Below the pieces are notes generated by a model that was not told where the DNA came from, made no database searches, and was given only the letters and a program-made list of their open reading frames with translations. This document shows, piece after piece, positions 8,529 through 30,591 of a stretch of DNA of 64,000 nucleotides; position 1 is the first letter of the stretch, and every line of letters begins with the position of its first letter. A program made the translations under genes and the position numbers. The stretch comes from Escherichia phage Ptacy1532, in sequence record PQ863255.1. One strand, given 5' to 3'.

Positions 8529-8541
8529 TTAGGAGATAAAT

Positions 8542-10197
8542 ATGCAACAGACAACTTACGCTCAGGTTAGAAGTCGTGACCCGAGAAATACTTTCTATGG
8601 TGTTAATCCGGGAGCGGCTTCGGCCTCTCCTTATATGGCTAGACCGACTCAGACAGCAGATATTTCTATGTACCAACGTCCTGCTGTACCTTCATCTCTT
8701 GCGGGTCTTGTCTCTCAAGCAGAAGAAGATCAGAATGCTATGATTAATCCGGGGTTCCAGCAGCGTCTTATGGAACAGCAGAATCAAGGAACCCCTACCA
8801 GTCTTCAGGGTATTGATATTGGAGCACCAGCCCCTGTAGCGGCTAATCCTAACCTATCCACTGATCAAGGTTTACAAGATGCAGGGCTTATGCCTAGTGA
8901 CCCTCTTCCGGTAACACCTCCTCCTAAACCATTAGAAGATGGTCCTATGGAGTTTACTCCTTCTCAGGTGGAACAGGCACAAGGTGTGATTAACACTCTT
9001 GCTCAAGGACAAGATACTGGTGATGGGATGGCTGCTGCTACTCGTGCTAAAGATCAGGAACGTGTTAACAACGATATCTTGCAAGTTGCGAAAGCTAAAG
9101 ACCCTTCGGAAGCTTGGAACAAACTACAGAAAGAACCATTCTACCAAAACTCCAGTTTCTATACAGGTTTGATGGGTGTAGGTCTTTCCATCATGTCAGG
9201 TAAATCTCCTATCGAAGCTTTCCAGATTGGTCAGGGAATGGCTAATCAAGATGAGACTAAGAAGCAACTGGAAGCTAACCGTGATGCTCTAATTGAACAA
9301 GGTTTCTCTCAAGATTCGATCGCAGCTGCTATTGCTAACGGAGATCCTTCTCTGCTGAAGATGAAAGCTGTGGACCCTGCTCAGAAAGAAGCGTTGTATG
9401 CTGCTCGTGAAGAACGACAGAATGCTGAATGGGACAGACGTCAACAGATTCAAGAGCAGACTATGCGTGAGCGTGCTGAGGAAACTCGTCGATCCGCTGA
9501 AGAAAGAGCTAATATGAACTTTGAACGTCAGAAAGAGTTGATTGGCTATCGTGATAAAGTTAAGGCTGAACGTGCTGAACAGGCTGCTCAGAGTTTTAAC
9601 TTCAACCCGAAAGAAGTCCGTCTTGCTCAGAATACAGCTGAAGGTACGGTTGCTAAGCAGTGGGCAGAGAAAGGTGGCTTGTTTAACCAGTCCAATAAAG
9701 ACTTGGACTTGGCTGATAAAGCTGTTAAGGACAAAGATTATCAGACGGCCCGTTCTGCTTACATGCAGGCTATCATGAACTCCGCAAGGGCTGAAATCGG
9801 TGCTACTCGTTCTCTTACCGAAGAAGACTTGGGACACTTTGCAGAAGACCCATCAATCTTCGTTCGTGTTGGTAACAAGTTTTCACTTAAATCTGGATGG
9901 CGTCCTACTGATTCTGCTCTTGCTTATGCTCGTAAGCAGGCTAACGTTGGTCACACCTCTGCAATGAAAGGTGTTGCTGATGCTAAGAGAGCTACGATTG
10001 AAGCTTATATCGGTTCTGGTATGGATAAGAAGAGAGCTACTGCATTGGTCAACCGTGCAATCCCTTCTGGTGGTTTCTATGACCCTCTAGGTGTTTTCTC
10101 TGAACAAGCGGAGGAAGCAGTTGGTGGTGCAGCAACCAATCCTAAGCTTAATGGTGCTTTATCGGCTGTAGAAGATACTAGCTGGTTCACGCAATAA
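8542..10197 (+). CDS. internal virion / structural protein
   Basis: 551-aa ORF with AGGAG RBS in the structural operon; charged coiled-coil-like C-terminal half. Confidence 0.5.
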   Translation: MQQTTYAQVRSRDPRNTFYGVNPGAASASPYMARPTQTADISMYQRPAVPSSLAGLVSQAEEDQNAMINPGFQQRLMEQQNQGTPTSLQGIDIGAPAPVAANPNLSTDQGLQDAGLMPSDPLPVTPPPKPLEDGPMEFTPSQVEQAQGVINTLAQGQDTGDGMAAATRAKDQERVNNDILQVAKAKDPSEAWNKLQKEPFYQNSSFYTGLMGVGLSIMSGKSPIEAFQIGQGMANQDETKKQLEANRDALIEQGFSQDSIAAAIANGDPSLLKMKAVDPAQKEALYAAREERQNAEWDRRQQIQEQTMRERAEETRRSAEERANMNFERQKELIGYRDKVKAERAEQAAQSFNFNPKEVRLAQNTAEGTVAKQWAEKGGLFNQSNKDLDLADKAVKDKDYQTARSAYMQAIMNSARAEIGATRSLTEEDLGHFAEDPSIFVRVGNKFSLKSGWRPTDSALAYARKQANVGHTSAMKGVADAKRATIEAYIGSGMDKKRATALVNRAIPSGGFYDPLGVFSEQAEEAVGGAATNPKLNGALSAVEDTSWFTQ

Positions 10198-22717: not shown

Positions 22718-24562
22718 TTAGTGCGTATGCATCCAGTTTAGTCCAATCTGACAATCAGAAGCCAGAGGACATTCCATGTTCAAATATTCACCCGCTTTCT
22801 TAACACAAAGCTCAGTGTGTTCTTTGAGTTTCTGTACATCATTACGATTCACTGAGAATTGGCCCTCATCGTGCATATCAATTACCTTAGCACAACGAAC
22901 CCTATCCCTCTCAATCCACTTGTTTAGGAACATCATAGCATATTTCATAACAACAGCACCAGCACATTGCAGGAGAGTGTTAAGTGCTTTATGAACCATA
23001 ACCTTACCAGTGGCATCTCGTCTCATTGTAATCTTACGACCATCAACACCAATCAAGTATCCTTGAGCAGCTTTCTCTGTCATACGATCAATGAGGATTG
23101 CAATACATGGGTTCTCTGCCAAGAAACGTGCTCGCATCACTGAACCTTCGTCAGCCCCACCACCTACAATTGAACCAAGCTTAGCGTCTCCAGCACCGTA
23201 GTTGAATGCATAGATAAACGTTTTAGCATTGTCACGAGTAGGAAGACCAGCAAGTTTCTGGTTGTGGGAGTGGATATCGCCTTCAAGGAGGATATCACGA
23301 TACATAATAGCAGAAGCTAAACCACGTTCTGCCAGAGCTTTCTTAGCTGGATTGTTTTCTTCTATTGCTTCAGCAAGCATATCCCTACACTCTTTAATGA
23401 GGTAGTGAGCGAGCATACGAAGCTCAAGTCCAGAACCATCATACCCTAAGAATACTTCTTTACCAGCGGGTATGTAATATTTGTAAGCACCTACAGGTTT
23501 GTCTTTCTTCCCCGGCTTACCTTTCTCGTAAATTACGTTAGTACCTTTTCGTATATAACAACCATCAGGAACAACGTTAGTAATAACGAAAGGACGAGAA
23601 TGATCACTGTCTGAGTTATAGTCAGACTCAAACAGACTGCGACACTCGTGACCAAACAGACCACGGGAGGGAATATTAACCACGATACGATGTTTGAATC
23701 GAAAAGTCGGAGTAGCGCAGCTGTTAGCTTCTGCCGAAAGTTTACCATCTTCGCGTTCCTTTGCTATGAGTCCACTGATAAGACCTAGCCTGTGAGCCGC
23801 TACAACGCGTCTCTTAAGCAAACTTCCGACACTCCCTAGCTCACCCCCTAGCCCCTCTTCAAGAGTCTCCTCGAGGTTTGTAGGAGCTGTAGGCCACTTG
23901 TTTGATGTGGCTAGTGCTTTCTTAATCTCATCAAACGTTACAGGATTACGACGATTAGGGTTCAATCCCAAACCAAATACGTAAGCCTTCATATAGTTCT
24001 TAGTCTTAAACCTGAAATGCTTTTCTAAGAACTTCTTAATATCAGCGTCAACCATCTCGGCTGTCTGCTTCTGTTTAGTATTGCCTCGCATCCAAGCAGT
24101 GTACCATGCTTGATACGTTCCATACTTTCTCATATCTTTCTTAATTTCGAAAGTATTCCAAGGCTTCTTAGATACATTAAACTCTGGAGGAAGAAAGCCC
24201 TCATCCATAAGAGCTTCTTTAACTCGAGCATCTTTCGATGGGTCAAAGTCTACGTATTCAACACAGGTGAAAGCTCCACCAATATCTTCTCTTTTCAGCC
24301 CAACCCTATCACAATAGGCTTGAGGCCACTTCTGTAAAGCTCCAGACTTCTTAAACGGCTTCATATAAGTAGAGCCGTCTAATCTCATCTTAGGTAAGAG
24401 AGGAATCAACTCTCTGTCAATATTAACAATAATCTCTTTAAGGAGGTGAACATACCACCGAGCATTTCTTCGGTTGAAACTCACTCCGTGCTTTGCTTGC
24501 TTAGAGATTATATCAGCGACAGTCATCTCTGTCAAAAATGGAAGAGCGTCCGGGTTGCTCAC
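22718..24562 (-). CDS. DNA polymerase (family A, T7 gp5-like) polymerase domain
   Basis: SGLELRMLAHYL and GDIHSHNQKLAGLPTRDNAKTFIYAFNYGAGDAKLGSIVGG match T7 DNA polymerase motifs A/B; no 3'-5' exonuclease domain in this ORF. Confidence 0.9.
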   Translation of the reverse strand: MSNPDALPFLTEMTVADIISKQAKHGVSFNRRNARWYVHLLKEIIVNIDRELIPLLPKMRLDGSTYMKPFKKSGALQKWPQAYCDRVGLKREDIGGAFTCVEYVDFDPSKDARVKEALMDEGFLPPEFNVSKKPWNTFEIKKDMRKYGTYQAWYTAWMRGNTKQKQTAEMVDADIKKFLEKHFRFKTKNYMKAYVFGLGLNPNRRNPVTFDEIKKALATSNKWPTAPTNLEETLEEGLGGELGSVGSLLKRRVVAAHRLGLISGLIAKEREDGKLSAEANSCATPTFRFKHRIVVNIPSRGLFGHECRSLFESDYNSDSDHSRPFVITNVVPDGCYIRKGTNVIYEKGKPGKKDKPVGAYKYYIPAGKEVFLGYDGSGLELRMLAHYLIKECRDMLAEAIEENNPAKKALAERGLASAIMYRDILLEGDIHSHNQKLAGLPTRDNAKTFIYAFNYGAGDAKLGSIVGGGADEGSVMRARFLAENPCIAILIDRMTEKAAQGYLIGVDGRKITMRRDATGKVMVHKALNTLLQCAGAVVMKYAMMFLNKWIERDRVRCAKVIDMHDEGQFSVNRNDVQKLKEHTELCVKKAGEYLNMECPLASDCQIGLNWMHTH

Positions 24563-29197: not shown

Positions 29198-29854
29198 TTA
29201 AATCTCCAATGTTTTCTTCAGAGCTGCCCACGAGATTGGGTAGATCTTAGTCATCTCTTCGTCTACAGATTTAGCAAACACTCGAACTTCATATTGAGCG
29301 TGAGAGGAGAGTCGCTGACGACACAACTCAAACCATCCATACAAAGAACCAGTCCACACCCACTCAGTGATCATCCCCTGAGGAAGAACAAATCGAGCTT
29401 GCTCTGGTGCAATAAATTCAATCAACTTGTCATATGCTGCTAGAGAAGCTTCATATGCATCATTAATCAGCATTAATGCTTCAGCTCGTTCTCCGTCGAT
29501 GAGTTGAATCCCTGAACCTGCATGGAGGTCCGAAGGTCTCGCAAAAATCTCTTTAGGGATGAAGACTTCAACTGCTCCATCTTTATACCGCCGGGACATT
29601 TCGTTCCACGAGAATCCAACCTGATGCTTCTGTAGTTGACGAGCGATTGCAATTGGAGCCTTACAACGAAAGGACACTTGTGGGTGACGGAACGGAGTGC
29701 AGTGTTTCTCTCTAGCCAAGAAATTAATCAACCGAGTGTCACGATCGTTCAAATCACCCTCTCGTACAACACCAAAAGAAACTCTTGCAGCATTAACAAC
29801 AGTTTTATCACTGCCCATAGCCTCAATCAATGTTGCTTGCAATTGTTCATTCAT
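29198..29854 (-). CDS. thyX: flavin-dependent thymidylate synthase (ThyX-like)
   Basis: FRHPQVSFRCK ... NEMSRRY matches the ThyX RHR / S.R / SxRY signature. Confidence 0.7.
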   Translation of the reverse strand: MNEQLQATLIEAMGSDKTVVNAARVSFGVVREGDLNDRDTRLINFLAREKHCTPFRHPQVSFRCKAPIAIARQLQKHQVGFSWNEMSRRYKDGAVEVFIPKEIFARPSDLHAGSGIQLIDGERAEALMLINDAYEASLAAYDKLIEFIAPEQARFVLPQGMITEWVWTGSLYGWFELCRQRLSSHAQYEVRVFAKSVDEEMTKIYPISWAALKKTLEI

Positions 29855-30326
29855 ACTTCAACTTCTCCTTGTTATAAGCAATCTCTGCTTCCTCTGGAGT
29901 ATGGAAAGTTCCTAGATGCTTAGTCTTTCCATTAACTCCGATGATAGCTCTGAATTTTGTACCACTAGCCGTCTCTCTGATGTAAACACCCATTGGAAGT
30001 TTTCCAGCTTTTCCGGCTCTGTTGTATTGTTTTCTGTTATGACAGTTTGTAGATGGGTCAACATCTCTTAGATTTTTAAGAGAGTCATCCAGTTTAATCT
30101 GGTTGATATGATCAATCTCAAACTCAGGCATCTTTCCATAAGAGAAAAACCAAGCTAATCGACATGCTCTGTAAGATTTCCCTTCATAATAGATATACCT
30201 GTAACCTAATGTTGAGATACACCCAGCAATGTTCCCTGATATTCTCCGACCTTTAGTATTCTTCCACCTAAAGACCCCAGTATCAGGGTCATATGCTAGG
30301 TCATCTTTTATTTTATCAGTTAACAC
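29847..30326 (-). CDS. HNH homing endonuclease with C-terminal AP2-type DNA-binding domain
   Basis: EIDHINQIKLDDSLKNL ... CHNRKQ HNH motif; GVYIRETASGTKFRAIIGVNGKTKHLGTFHTPEEAEIAY AP2-like. Confidence 0.65.
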   Translation of the reverse strand: MLTDKIKDDLAYDPDTGVFRWKNTKGRRISGNIAGCISTLGYRYIYYEGKSYRACRLAWFFSYGKMPEFEIDHINQIKLDDSLKNLRDVDPSTNCHNRKQYNRAGKAGKLPMGVYIRETASGTKFRAIIGVNGKTKHLGTFHTPEEAEIAYNKEKLKYE

Positions 30327-30591
30327 CTAAAGCTGTGTCCAAAAATGCTTTCAGGTTTGCTTCAGTCTGCATACCAGAGAGGCTGTAATGTGCACCGCTG
30401 TTACGGTCAGGTACAACGAAAGCAGGGATGCTTCGTACACCATACTTAACAGCTTGCTCACGACCATCACCTTCAAGGATGTTAATCTCTTCCACTTCTA
30501 CATCAAACTCCTTAACAACCTTCTCAAAGGTAGGAGCCATTGCTTTACATGGAGCACATTGATCACTATAAAACTTAATTACTTTAGACAT
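30316..30591 (-). CDS. thioredoxin
   Basis: Track ORF trimmed to the ATG; active-site-like CAPC in FYSDQCAPCKAMAP. Confidence 0.65.
   Translation of the reverse strand: MSKVIKFYSDQCAPCKAMAPTFEKVVKEFDVEVEEINILEGDGREQAVKYGVRSIPAFVVPDRNSGAHYSLSGMQTEANLKAFLDTALGVN

What the first reader, a model, noticed from the sequence alone, without database searches (positions are those of the whole stretch)
30316..30591. Phage encodes its own thioredoxin alongside a T7-type DNA polymerase
T7 DNA polymerase depends on host thioredoxin as its processivity factor. Here a thioredoxin-like gene (FYSDQCAPCKAMAP) lies inside the replication/nucleotide-metabolism block between the two polymerase genes. A phage-supplied processivity factor would free replication from host thioredoxin levels; alternatively it may serve a ribonucleotide reductase or redox role.
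Basis: inference. Interest (0 to 1): 0.5.

Follow-up and report, generated by a model that had tools for sequence, protein, structure and literature searches.

The report
Known small thioredoxin of phiEco32-like phages
The window is a phiEco32-like (Kuravirus) E. coli phage, and the flagged gene is a genuine small thioredoxin that is already annotated in this phage group; whether it clamps the T7-like DNA polymerase or feeds electrons to nucleotide synthesis is a published but untested question.

Summary
Window 30316..30591 (minus strand) encodes a 91-aa thioredoxin with a CAPC active site and a cis-proline loop. Its predicted fold matches E. coli TrxA. It lies between the separately encoded exonuclease and polymerase subunits of a T7 gp5-like DNA polymerase.

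It is not new. The window is a Kuravirus, about 97% identical to phage WFI101126. The ortholog is annotated as thioredoxin in phiEco32 and SU10, and SU10 gp65 was detected by mass spectrometry. The processivity-factor idea was published for the related phage Privateer in 2021.

I tested the suggested check. The polymerase has a conserved, ordered insertion of about 46 aa at the site of the T7 thioredoxin-binding domain. Its C-terminal arm is homologous to the T7 segment that contacts thioredoxin. The same insertion occurs in the LUZ24-like phage examined (NV1), which encodes no thioredoxin.

Three results point to redox work. The redox centre is invariant. In relatives the gene travels with Dcd, Dps, ThyX and ribonucleotide reductase. 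In 40 of 80 viral loci a relative sits within 0.5 kb of class I RNR genes.

A redox and dNTP-supply role is somewhat more likely than a processivity role. Neither is shown.

The parts
30316..30591 (-). Thioredoxin gene, 91 aa. Active site C12-A-P-C15, cis-Pro56, and G73 equivalent to E. coli G92. It lacks the N-terminal beta1-alpha1 of bacterial TrxA.
   Evidence: The ortholog is annotated as thioredoxin in WFI101126, SU10, phiEco32 and NJ01.
22718..24562 (-). DNA polymerase subunit, 614 aa, family A and T7 gp5-like, without an exonuclease domain.
   Evidence: Pfam PF00476. T7 gp5 is the best PDB sequence match at 1.4e-32. AF2 pLDDT is 92.4. The top 27 Foldseek hits are all T7 gp5.
24233..24394 (-). 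Codons 57-110 of the polymerase. This is a conserved thumb insertion of about 46 aa between helices H and H1, at the site of the T7 thioredoxin-binding domain. Its C-terminal arm E92..V104 is homologous to T7 319-333.
   Evidence: MAFFT alignment with T7 gp5. Family profile against T7 gp5, E=6e-8 for T7 319-363. Predicted ordered as beta59-66, alpha78-87 and beta98-104, pLDDT about 90.
34645..35202 (-). Separate 3'-5' exonuclease subunit of the polymerase, 185 aa.
   Evidence: PF01612 at E=2e-8. Annotated 'DNA polymerase exonuclease subunit' in SU10.
35196..36986 (-). T7 gp4-like primase-helicase.
   Evidence: DnaB_C and Toprim matches. Annotation in relatives.
31012..31575 (-). Dps-family ferritin-like protein. 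It is the usual neighbour of the thioredoxin in related phages.
   Evidence: PDB Dps matches at 2.6e-9. PHROG 3636. Adjacent or near-adjacent to the Trx in L090, L093, L095 and Privateer.
31568..31897 (-). Conserved 109-aa protein of unknown function (PHROG 10984). It travels with Trx and Dps in C3 podophages.
   Evidence: The SU10 paper lists CDS65 (Trx), CDS67 (Dps) and CDS68 as shared by all C3 phages. 7-11 gp078 is noted as similar to a phiEco32 conserved hypothetical protein.
32790..33323 (-). dCTP deaminase.
   Evidence: PF22769 at E=3.5e-34.
29198..29854 (-). Flavin-dependent thymidylate synthase ThyX.
   Evidence: PF02511 at E=6e-44.
30591..30761 (-). 56-aa ORF (PHROG 19504, function unknown, contains a CQC motif). 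Its stop codon overlaps the thioredoxin ATG as TAATG.
29847..30326 (-). HNH homing endonuclease inserted between trx and thyX. Its GTG start overlaps the last 11 nt of trx.
   Evidence: PF13392. Absent at this position in WFI101126 and SU10. Annotated 'homing endonuclease' under the match in ES17 and YW01.

Best explanation
The gene encodes a redox-active, minimal thioredoxin with the core Trx fold and without the bacterial N-terminal beta-alpha unit. It belongs to the phage's nucleotide-metabolism and redox module (dCTP deaminase, Trx, a 109-aa protein, Dps, ThyX). It does not belong to the polymerase core (primase-helicase, exonuclease, polymerase).

Most likely mechanism, inferred and not shown: the host thioredoxin reductase TrxB reduces it using NADPH, and it passes electrons through C12/C15 to ribonucleotide reductase, raising dNTP supply for a 77-kb genome. 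Kuraviruses have no RNR of their own, so the acceptor would be the host NrdAB. Relatives that kept a phage RNR point to an ancestral phage Trx-RNR pairing.

Shown: the fold, an intact and invariant redox centre, the genomic context, and the absence of a phage RNR.
Inferred: the electron donor and acceptor, and the effect on replication.
For: 1. Redox machinery is under purifying selection. C12, P14, C15, cis-Pro56, R53 and G73 are invariant down to 33-41% identity. The buried E. coli D26/K57 pair is replaced by a reciprocal K6/E34 pair. T7's use of TrxA does not need redox activity, according to the introduction of PMC5984650.

2. Among 80 IMG/VR loci encoding relatives of this Trx, 40 have a class I RNR gene within 0.5 kb, typically in the order RNR-alpha, Trx, RNR-beta. 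Four more have RNR elsewhere in the locus. Only 8 are C3-type PolA phages.

3. Within the clade that shares this polymerase, the redoxin tracks nucleotide metabolism. L095 (69% polymerase identity) has Dps-Trx-ThyX followed by NrdD and NrdG. L090 has Dcd-Trx-x-Dps-NrdD. L093 and Privateer have class I RNR plus Trx. L094 has a glutaredoxin directly upstream of nrdA-nrdB instead of a Trx. NV1 (LUZ24-like) has the same replication core but no Trx, Dcd, ThyX, Dps or RNR.

4. PHROG 22 classes it under nucleotide metabolism.

5. Precedent: the Syn5 cyanophage Trx is redox-active and raises genome replication. AlphaFold3 did not dock it on the Syn5 polymerase TBD, and the authors favour RNR reduction (10.1101/2025.10.05.680603).
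Against: Kuravirus itself has no RNR. None is annotated in the 77-kb relative. tblastn of the window with class I and class III RNR queries found nothing. Even so, the Trx is retained in all Kuraviruses listed, and in 7-11, where no RNR was seen in the 24-kb region examined. It therefore has some function that does not depend on a phage RNR.

E. coli already supplies TrxA and Grx1 for NrdAB, so the benefit of an extra reductant is unproven.

Two relatives have NrdD and NrdG without a Trx within the roughly 10 kb either side of the polymerase that was retrieved (L089, L092), so the Trx-RNR link is not obligatory. No enzymatic data exist for this protein.
Confidence: 0.5

Rival explanations
1. 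Processivity subunit. The phage thioredoxin binds the polymerase's thumb insertion (a 'mini-TBD') through its active-site surface and clamps the polymerase on DNA. Replication then becomes independent of host TrxA, and redox chemistry is not needed.
For: The polymerase is the closest known relative of T7 gp5. It has an insertion exactly at the TBD site.

Family positions 92-105 (E-D-I-G-G-A-F-T-C-V-E-Y-V in the window) align to T7 E319-V333 at E=6e-8. That segment includes equivalents of the thioredoxin contacts E319, P325 (Pro in about 90% of the family, Ala in the window), T327, V329 and E330 (contacts taken from PMC5984650).

The phage Trx keeps the TrxA residues named as contacts: R73=R53 (invariant), I75=I55, P76=P56, G92=G73.

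The Trx is retained in Kuraviruses, which have no RNR, and in 7-11, where none was seen in the region examined. It sits in the middle-gene replication block, and the SU10 ortholog is expressed.
Against: The insertion is as strongly conserved in LUZ24-like polymerases, and NV1, the one such genome checked, has no Trx gene. It is therefore not tied to a phage Trx. It could bind host Trx or nothing.

It is about 30 aa shorter than the T7 TBD. It lacks the 262-318 part, including the 272-290 loop whose basic residues K281, K285 and R288 contact DNA once Trx binds. It is predicted compact and ordered without a partner, pLDDT about 90, whereas the T7 TBD is flexible.

E. coli G74, where G74D abolishes T7 binding, is Ser here. 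K90 is Leu.

Invariant cysteines are not needed for a pure clamp role. The gene is never adjacent to the polymerase. In Syn5 the analogous idea was not supported by AlphaFold3. No complex prediction could be made here.
Confidence: 0.25
2. Oxidative-stress or host-redox takeover module. The Trx acts with the adjacent Dps-like ferritin and the conserved 109-aa protein. It would control iron and peroxide damage to replicating phage DNA, or re-set the host thiol redox state and thiol-regulated host enzymes. It would not serve RNR or the polymerase specifically.
For: Trx, Dps and the 109-aa protein are among the few middle genes shared by all C3 podophages. They are adjacent or near-adjacent in L090, L093, L095 and Privateer. 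The Dps protein is a genuine Dps-family member. Redox-active Syn5 Trx is toxic to its host, so it acts on host targets. The window also carries a gamma-glutamyl cyclotransferase (37206..37625); the ATP-grasp and amidoligase genes of the same group are annotated in the 97%-identical relative.
Against: L089 has Dps without a Trx within the stretch retrieved. No peroxiredoxin or other Trx-dependent antioxidant enzyme is annotated in the close relative's genome. The association is by neighbourhood only.
Confidence: 0.2
3. Dispensable accessory gene with no specific partner, carried along by linkage.
For: The gene is small and sits among variable small ORFs and a mobile HNH endonuclease.
Against: It is conserved with an intact active site across Kuravirus, Grimontviridae and metagenomic relatives down to about 40% identity. 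The SU10 protein was detected with 52.8% coverage.
Confidence: 0.05

Closest known systems
phiEco32, SU10 gp65 and NJ01 'thiol-disulfide isomerase and thioredoxin' (Kuravirus orthologs)
   Same: The same gene at the same locus, with 97-100% amino-acid identity. SU10 gp65 was detected by mass spectrometry and listed as conserved in all C3 phages.
   Different: Nothing of substance. In this window an HNH endonuclease gene and a 56-aa ORF flank it, in place of the small ORFs seen in SU10 and WFI101126.
E. coli thioredoxin 1 (TrxA), including its role as the T7 gp5 processivity factor (PDB 1T7P)
   Same: Same fold, TM 0.82 and about 30% identity. It has a CxPC active site, the cis-Pro loop, R73 and G92.
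   Different: It lacks about 20 N-terminal residues (beta1-alpha1). The active site is CAPC rather than CGPC. W28 is Tyr, W31 is Gln, G74 is Ser and K90 is Leu. D26/K57 is swapped to K/E. It is phage-encoded. No binding to a polymerase has been shown.
Syn5 cyanophage thioredoxin (Tahan, Shitrit & Lindell preprint 10.1101/2025.10.05.680603)
   Same: An N-terminally truncated phage Trx in the replication cluster of a podophage with a T7-type polymerase. The same two hypotheses were considered, RNR reductant or processivity factor.
   Different: Syn5 encodes its own RNR and Kuravirus does not. Syn5 Trx has CGPC. Experimental data exist for Syn5 only.
Proteus phage Privateer thioredoxin QIN94863 (PMC7881722)
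   Same: A homolog (39% in alignment A2) in the same gene order, Dcd-Trx-x-Dps, in a C3 podophage with the same polymerase family. The authors proposed that it couples with the polymerase to improve processivity.
   Different: Privateer also encodes class I NrdA and NrdB and a stand-alone ATP-cone protein.
Thioredoxin-binding domain of T7 gp5 (residues 258/262-333/338)
   Same: The insertion is at the same thumb position. Its C-terminal arm is homologous, and there is a basic KPFKK patch resembling T7 FKKPKNK.
   Different: It is about 46 aa against about 76 aa. There is no counterpart of T7 262-318. It is predicted ordered. It is also present in a phage without a Trx gene (NV1). Binding is untested.
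Phage T4 NrdC and other RNR-linked phage redoxins (established knowledge, not tested here)
   Same: A small phage-encoded redoxin supporting dNTP synthesis. Half of the viral relatives found here sit next to RNR genes.
   Different: T4 NrdC is glutaredoxin-like and pairs with T4's own NrdAB. Here no phage RNR exists.

Membership tests
Thioredoxin family (Pfam PF00085, thioredoxin fold) | Significant match to the family profile above the curated threshold | tested here: met
   PF00085 at E=2.2e-13, 50.6 bits against a cut-off of 23.5. PHROG 22.
Thioredoxin family (Pfam PF00085, thioredoxin fold) | Thioredoxin fold: a central beta-sheet flanked by helices, beta-alpha-beta-alpha-beta-beta-alpha core | tested here: met
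   AF2 model pLDDT 91.8 with E3-8, H13-28, E32-37, H43-49, E57-61, E68-72 and H77-88. TM 0.82 to E. coli TrxA.
Thioredoxin family (Pfam PF00085, thioredoxin fold) | CxxC (WCGPC-type) active site at the N-terminus of helix 1, and a cis-proline loop | tested here: met
   C12-A-P-C15 starts helix 13-28. R53-S-I-P56 aligns with the E. coli R73-G-I-P76 loop. All are invariant in homologs. The flanking Trp residues are not conserved (Y8, Q11).
Thioredoxin family (Pfam PF00085, thioredoxin fold) | Full-length bacterial Trx architecture with N-terminal beta1-alpha1 (about 105-110 aa) | tested here: not met
   The protein is 91 aa and matches TrxA residues 24-107 only. This truncation is typical of phage thioredoxins.
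Thioredoxin family (Pfam PF00085, thioredoxin fold) | Disulfide reductase activity with thioredoxin reductase and NADPH | not testable with these tools
   This needs an insulin or DTNB assay.
T7-type polymerase-thioredoxin processivity system | Family A polymerase of the T7 gp5 lineage | tested here: met
   (full-length profile E=2e-74 against T7 gp5).
T7-type polymerase-thioredoxin processivity system | Insertion between thumb helices H and H1 (the TBD site) | tested here: met
   Window polymerase residues about 57-105 occupy this site. Klenow- and Bst-type polymerases have only a short turn there; that comparison rests on my own knowledge of those sequences.
T7-type polymerase-thioredoxin processivity system | Full TBD of about 71-76 residues, flexible without Trx, including the 272-290 loop with basic DNA-contacting residues | tested here: not met
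   The insertion is about 46 aa. T7 262-318 has no counterpart. It is predicted ordered with pLDDT about 90.
T7-type polymerase-thioredoxin processivity system | Conservation of the Trx-contacting arm (T7 E319-E330) | tested here: met
   E92/D93, G95-G96, A97 (Pro in about 90% of the family), F98, T99, V101 and E102 align to E319, G323-A324, P325, Y326, T327, V329 and E330. E102 is not conserved across the whole family.
T7-type polymerase-thioredoxin processivity system | Co-occurrence of the insertion with a phage Trx, if the phage Trx is the dedicated partner | tested here: not met
   NV1 (LUZ24-like) has the insertion and no Trx anywhere in its genome. L089, L092 and L094 have the insertion and no Trx in the roughly 10 kb either side of the polymerase.
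T7-type polymerase-thioredoxin processivity system | 1:1 physical complex and an increase in processivity | not testable with these tools
   The structure tool returns no coordinates or inter-chain confidence and accepts only window or database sequences, so no complex model could be evaluated.
Kuravirus (Gordonclarkvirinae), phiEco32-like C3 podophages | Nucleotide identity and synteny with reference genomes | tested here: met
   96.9% identity over 93% of a 15-kb query to WFI101126. 53 records cover at least 80% of the query. Gene order is the same.

The most novel reading that the evidence does not exclude
The Kuravirus thioredoxin is a dedicated, virus-encoded processivity subunit. It docks through its cis-Pro loop on the beta-strand 98-104 of a shortened 'mini-TBD' in the split T7-like polymerase. 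That would make these phages independent of host trxA, with LUZ24-like relatives using host thioredoxin at the same site. It would be the first phage-encoded thioredoxin shown to act as a polymerase clamp, possibly alongside a redox role.
Probability: 0.2. Interest if true: 0.55.

Novelty: already known. Interest (0 to 1): 0.2.

Why it matters
If the processivity reading were right, it would show that the classic T7 trick of borrowing host thioredoxin can be internalised by a phage. It would also define a minimal thioredoxin-binding element usable in engineered polymerases. If the redox reading is right, the gene is one more example of a very common phage auxiliary gene that boosts dNTP supply. 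One twist would remain: Kuraviruses kept the reductant after losing their own ribonucleotide reductase. In either case the gene, its annotation and the hypothesis are already published, so the finding mainly points to an experiment that has not been done.

Tried and rejected
1. Phage RNR. I looked for a phage RNR that would settle the partner question. None is annotated in the 77-kb relative. tblastn of NrdA, NrdB, NrdD, NrdG and Grx queries against the window found nothing. A stand-alone ATP-cone like that of 7-11 and Privateer is also absent.

2. Second redoxin. An HMM of the Trx family finds only the one gene in the window.

3. Complex modelling. I considered modelling a polymerase-linker-Trx fusion. 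The structure tool returns neither coordinates nor inter-domain confidence, and it refuses sequences that are not in the window or database. I used the two jobs on the polymerase and the Trx separately.

4. Extra length of C3-phage polymerases. I asked whether the extra length (about 610 aa against about 545 aa) marks a Trx-specific insertion. In the thumb region inspected (residues 105-262) the extra residues are a helical segment around residues 140-175, with no evident link to Trx.

5. Literature. Searches for Kuravirus or Gordonclarkvirinae with trxA or thioredoxin found no experimental test. One hit (BME3) mentions only host thioredoxin in general terms.

6. Clustering artefact. The apparent 'RNR-beta' ORFs next to Dps in 7-11 and Privateer were a single-linkage artefact. 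They are about 100-aa ATP-cone proteins, and I excluded them from the RNR counts.
Full report
IDENTITY OF THE WINDOW

A 15-kb stretch around the finding matches Escherichia phage vB_EcoP_WFI101126 at 96.9% identity. It also matches dozens of other phiEco32-like phages of the genus Kuravirus, subfamily Gordonclarkvirinae; 53 records cover at least 80% of the query. Gene order is the same as in WFI101126 and SU10.

THE OBSERVATION

The ORF at 30316..30591 on the minus strand starts with ATG, preceded by GAGGA 7 nt upstream, and ends with TGA. It encodes a 91-aa protein containing the quoted FYSDQCAPCKAMAP.

- It matches Pfam Thioredoxin at E=2.2e-13 and PHROG 22 'thioredoxin domain'.
- It matches E. 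coli TrxA chains in the PDB at 2.5e-8 over TrxA residues 24-107.
- An AlphaFold2 model (pLDDT 91.8) shows the beta-alpha-beta-alpha-beta-beta-alpha thioredoxin core.
- The model superposes on E. coli TrxA at TM 0.82, including the TrxA chain of the T7 polymerase complex.

The protein lacks the N-terminal beta1-alpha1 of bacterial thioredoxins. According to a recent preprint this is the usual state of phage thioredoxins.

The flanking 'two polymerase genes' are a 185-aa exonuclease subunit (34645..35202) and a 614-aa polymerase subunit (22718..24562). The closest solved relative of the polymerase subunit is T7 gp5 by sequence (1.4e-32) and by predicted fold (top 27 Foldseek hits). A T7 gp4-like primase-helicase lies next to the exonuclease gene.

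IT IS ALREADY KNOWN

- The ortholog is annotated as 'thiol-disulfide isomerase and thioredoxin' or 'thioredoxin domain' in phiEco32, SU10, NJ01, WFI101126 and many others.
- The SU10 paper lists it among the few genes shared by all C3-morphotype podophages. It detected the protein by mass spectrometry at 52.8% coverage and described it as involved in DNA replication (PMC4281155).
[quoted passage not shown] AlphaFold3 did not place it on the polymerase's thioredoxin-binding domain, whereas host thioredoxins did dock there. The authors favoured reduction of RNR.
- I found no experimental work on the Kuravirus protein.

THE SUGGESTED CHECK: A THIOREDOXIN-BINDING LOOP IN THE POLYMERASE

I aligned the polymerase with 29 database homologs and T7 gp5. 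The whole clade carries a strongly conserved insertion between thumb helices H and H1, which is exactly the site of the T7 thioredoxin-binding domain. The clade includes Kuravirus, the Grimontviridae C3 phages, metagenomic relatives, and the LUZ24-like and Vicosavirus Pseudomonas phages. Window residues about 57-105 form the insertion, with consensus P.M...G..Y.KPF.K.G........GL...EVGGPFT.V.Y.PFD.SK.

A profile of the family aligns positions 92-135 to T7 residues 319-363 at E=6e-8. A molecular-dynamics study based on the crystal structure names the T7 residues that contact thioredoxin as E319, P325, T327, V329 and E330, plus Y265. It names the TrxA partners as I72, R73, I75, K90 and A93 (PMC5984650).

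- The window polymerase has E92/D93, A97, F98, T99, V101 and E102 at the positions of E319, P325, Y326, T327, V329 and E330. Position 97 is Pro in about 90% of the family.
- The phage Trx keeps R53 (=R73), I55 (=I75), P56 (=P76) and G73 (=G92).

So the element that touches thioredoxin in T7 has a recognisable homolog here.

There are also clear differences from T7.

- The insertion is about 46 aa rather than about 76.
- Nothing corresponds to T7 262-318. That part includes the 272-290 loop whose basic residues engage DNA after Trx binding.
- AlphaFold2 predicts the insertion as an ordered strand-helix-strand unit with pLDDT about 90 and no partner. The T7 domain is the most flexible part of that enzyme.
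- On the Trx side, G74 is Ser and K90 is Leu. G74D abolishes T7 binding.

DOES THE INSERTION GO WITH A PHAGE THIOREDOXIN?

It does not. Pseudomonas phage NV1 (LUZ24-like) has the same primase-helicase, exonuclease and polymerase core and the same insertion. It has no thioredoxin by annotation or by HMM search of all six frames.

I fetched seven metagenomic relatives through their polymerases; all have the insertion.

| Locus | Polymerase query | Relevant genes within about 10 kb of the polymerase |
|---|---|---|
| L095 | P0028, 69% identity | Dps-Trx-ThyX, then NrdD and NrdG |
| L090 | P0044 | Dcd-Trx-x-Dps-NrdD |
| L093 | P0056 | class I RNR, plus Dcd-Trx-x-Dps-ATP-cone |
| L089 | P0038 | NrdD and NrdG, no Trx |
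| L092 | P0054 | NrdD and NrdG, no Trx |
| L094 | P0069 | a glutaredoxin immediately upstream of nrdA-nrdB, no Trx |
| L091 | P0071 | a 70-aa CGPC mini-thioredoxin after Dcd, no RNR in view |

Privateer has class I NrdA and NrdB plus the Trx.

Within this lineage the redoxin therefore belongs to a variable nucleotide-metabolism and redox module with Dcd, ThyX, Dps and often an RNR. It does not belong to the invariant replisome core. Kuraviruses appear to have lost the RNR that a 69%-identical relative still has. No RNR, NrdG or ATP-cone is detectable in the window or annotated in the complete genome of the nearest relative.

THE WIDER FAMILY

I scanned IMG/VR with the Trx alignment and kept the best 80 of 506 confirmed loci. 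I clustered their ORFs and confirmed the main clusters with Pfam.

| Context of the Trx relative | Loci (of 80) |
|---|---|
| Class I RNR gene within 0.5 kb (mostly RNR-alpha, Trx, RNR-beta) | 40 |
| RNR elsewhere in the locus | 4 |
| Family B polymerase (PolB-Trx-UvsX-DnaB), no RNR in view | 10 |
| C3-type PolA phages | 8 |
| Neither | 18 |

The commonest partner by neighbourhood is RNR. The family is not specifically tied to T7-type polymerases.

STATE OF THE REDOX CENTRE

C12, P14, C15, R53, the cis-proline P56 and G73 are invariant from Kuravirus to Privateer, 7-11 and E. coli. The buried E. coli D26/K57 pair is replaced by a reciprocal K6/E34 pair. Selection is therefore maintaining a working active site. 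A purely structural clamp would not require this, because redox activity is dispensable for the T7 interaction.

WEIGHING

I give the redox and dNTP-supply explanation about 0.5. It rests on the invariant redox centre, the RNR-linked family, modular co-variation with nucleotide-metabolism genes, and the Syn5 precedent. The likely acceptor in Kuravirus is host NrdAB, because the phage has none.

I give the processivity explanation about 0.25. It is kept alive by the real homology of the Trx-contact arm, by the conserved contact residues on the Trx, and by the retention of the Trx in phages that lack an RNR. The two roles are not mutually exclusive.

A Dps-linked oxidative-stress or host-redox role gets about 0.2, supported only by the tight Trx-x-Dps neighbourhood. 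All three are inferences. No step after 'this is an intact thioredoxin expressed by the phage' has been shown for this protein.

VERDICT

The feature is real and correctly read, but ordinary for phages. PHROG 22 is a thioredoxin-domain family filed under DNA, RNA and nucleotide metabolism, and the preprint describes thioredoxin genes as widespread in diverse phages. The gene is annotated and its protein has been detected.

What this analysis adds is modest:
- a defined 'mini-TBD' in the polymerase family;
- evidence that it is independent of a phage Trx;
- evidence that Kuraviruses kept the Trx after losing an RNR.

Interest is low, at 0.2. The open question can be tested directly with a trx-deleted phage on a trxA-deleted host.

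Noticed in passing
window 29847-30326 (-): An HNH_3 homing endonuclease gene sits between trx and thyX. Its GTG start overlaps the last 11 nt of trx. WFI101126 has a 67-aa ORF there instead and SU10 has nothing. ES17 and YW01 carry a 'homing endonuclease' at the same place. It looks like a mobile insertion.
   Followed up: partly
window 30591-30761 (-): A 56-aa ORF (PHROG 19504, function unknown, CQC motif) has a stop codon that overlaps the trx start as TAATG, which suggests translational coupling. It is present in WFI101126 and absent from SU10. This recalls the gene overlapping trx in Syn5 (cve).
   Followed up: partly
window 31568-31897 (-) and 31012-31575 (-): Trx, a genuine Dps-family ferritin-like protein and a 109-aa protein of unknown function (PHROG 10984) travel together in the C3 podophage relatives that carry the Trx. 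The role of a phage Dps is unexplained.
   Followed up: partly
L008:14292-14591 (7-11), L007:13034-13330 (Privateer), L093:6220-6516, L089:5817-6080: Stand-alone ATP-cone proteins of about 90-110 aa lie directly after Dps. In L090 a full NrdD with an N-terminal ATP-cone occupies that position. The small proteins may be remnants of, or regulators derived from, a class III RNR. None is present in the window.
   Followed up: partly
L095:4801-6936 and 8540-9076: A metagenomic phage with a 69%-identical polymerase still has NrdD and NrdG between ThyX and the polymerase. This implies that Kuraviruses lost an anaerobic RNR fairly recently while keeping Trx and Dps.
   Followed up: partly
window 24233-24394 (-); L006:18725-20365 (NV1): The thumb insertion of the polymerase (KPF.K.G ... 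GGPFT) is nearly invariant across Kuravirus, Grimontviridae and LUZ24-like phages. I found no description of it as a TBD relative in the papers searched. In Trx-less phages it might bind host thioredoxin.
   Followed up: partly
L091:7523-7735: A 70-aa mini-thioredoxin (CGPC, AIPT cis-Pro loop) follows the Dcd/dUTPase gene in a phage with the same polymerase family. It is even smaller than the Kuravirus protein.
   Followed up: no
L094:5122-5361: In another phage with this polymerase family, a glutaredoxin (CSFC) sits immediately upstream of class I nrdA-nrdB and no Trx was found in the stretch retrieved. This is an apparent functional replacement.
   Followed up: no
L014, L016, L021, L022, L036, L037, L053, L072, L076: A recurrent arrangement, family B DNA polymerase - Trx - UvsX/RecA - DnaB, has no RNR within view. 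These are among the closest non-C3 relatives of the Trx (34-41% identity). The Trx sits in a replication module with a polymerase that is not T7-like.
   Followed up: no
window Trx residues K6 and E34: The buried E. coli D26/K57 pair is replaced by a reciprocal K/E pair that is nearly invariant in the phage family. It looks like a compensatory charge swap.
   Followed up: no
window 37206-37625 (-) and upstream genes: A gamma-glutamyl cyclotransferase (PHROG 2520) is encoded here. In the 97%-identical relative WFI101126 and in NV1, ATP-grasp, glutamine amidotransferase and COOH-NH2 ligase genes are annotated just upstream. The group is shared with LUZ24-like phages and I did not examine it in the window. 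It might affect gamma-glutamyl or glutathione chemistry.
   Followed up: no
window 33333-34700 (-): A 455-aa nucleotidyltransferase lies between the exonuclease subunit and Dcd. It has a CCA-adding or poly(A) polymerase head domain with a weak Pfam match, and belongs to PHROG 12715.
   Followed up: no
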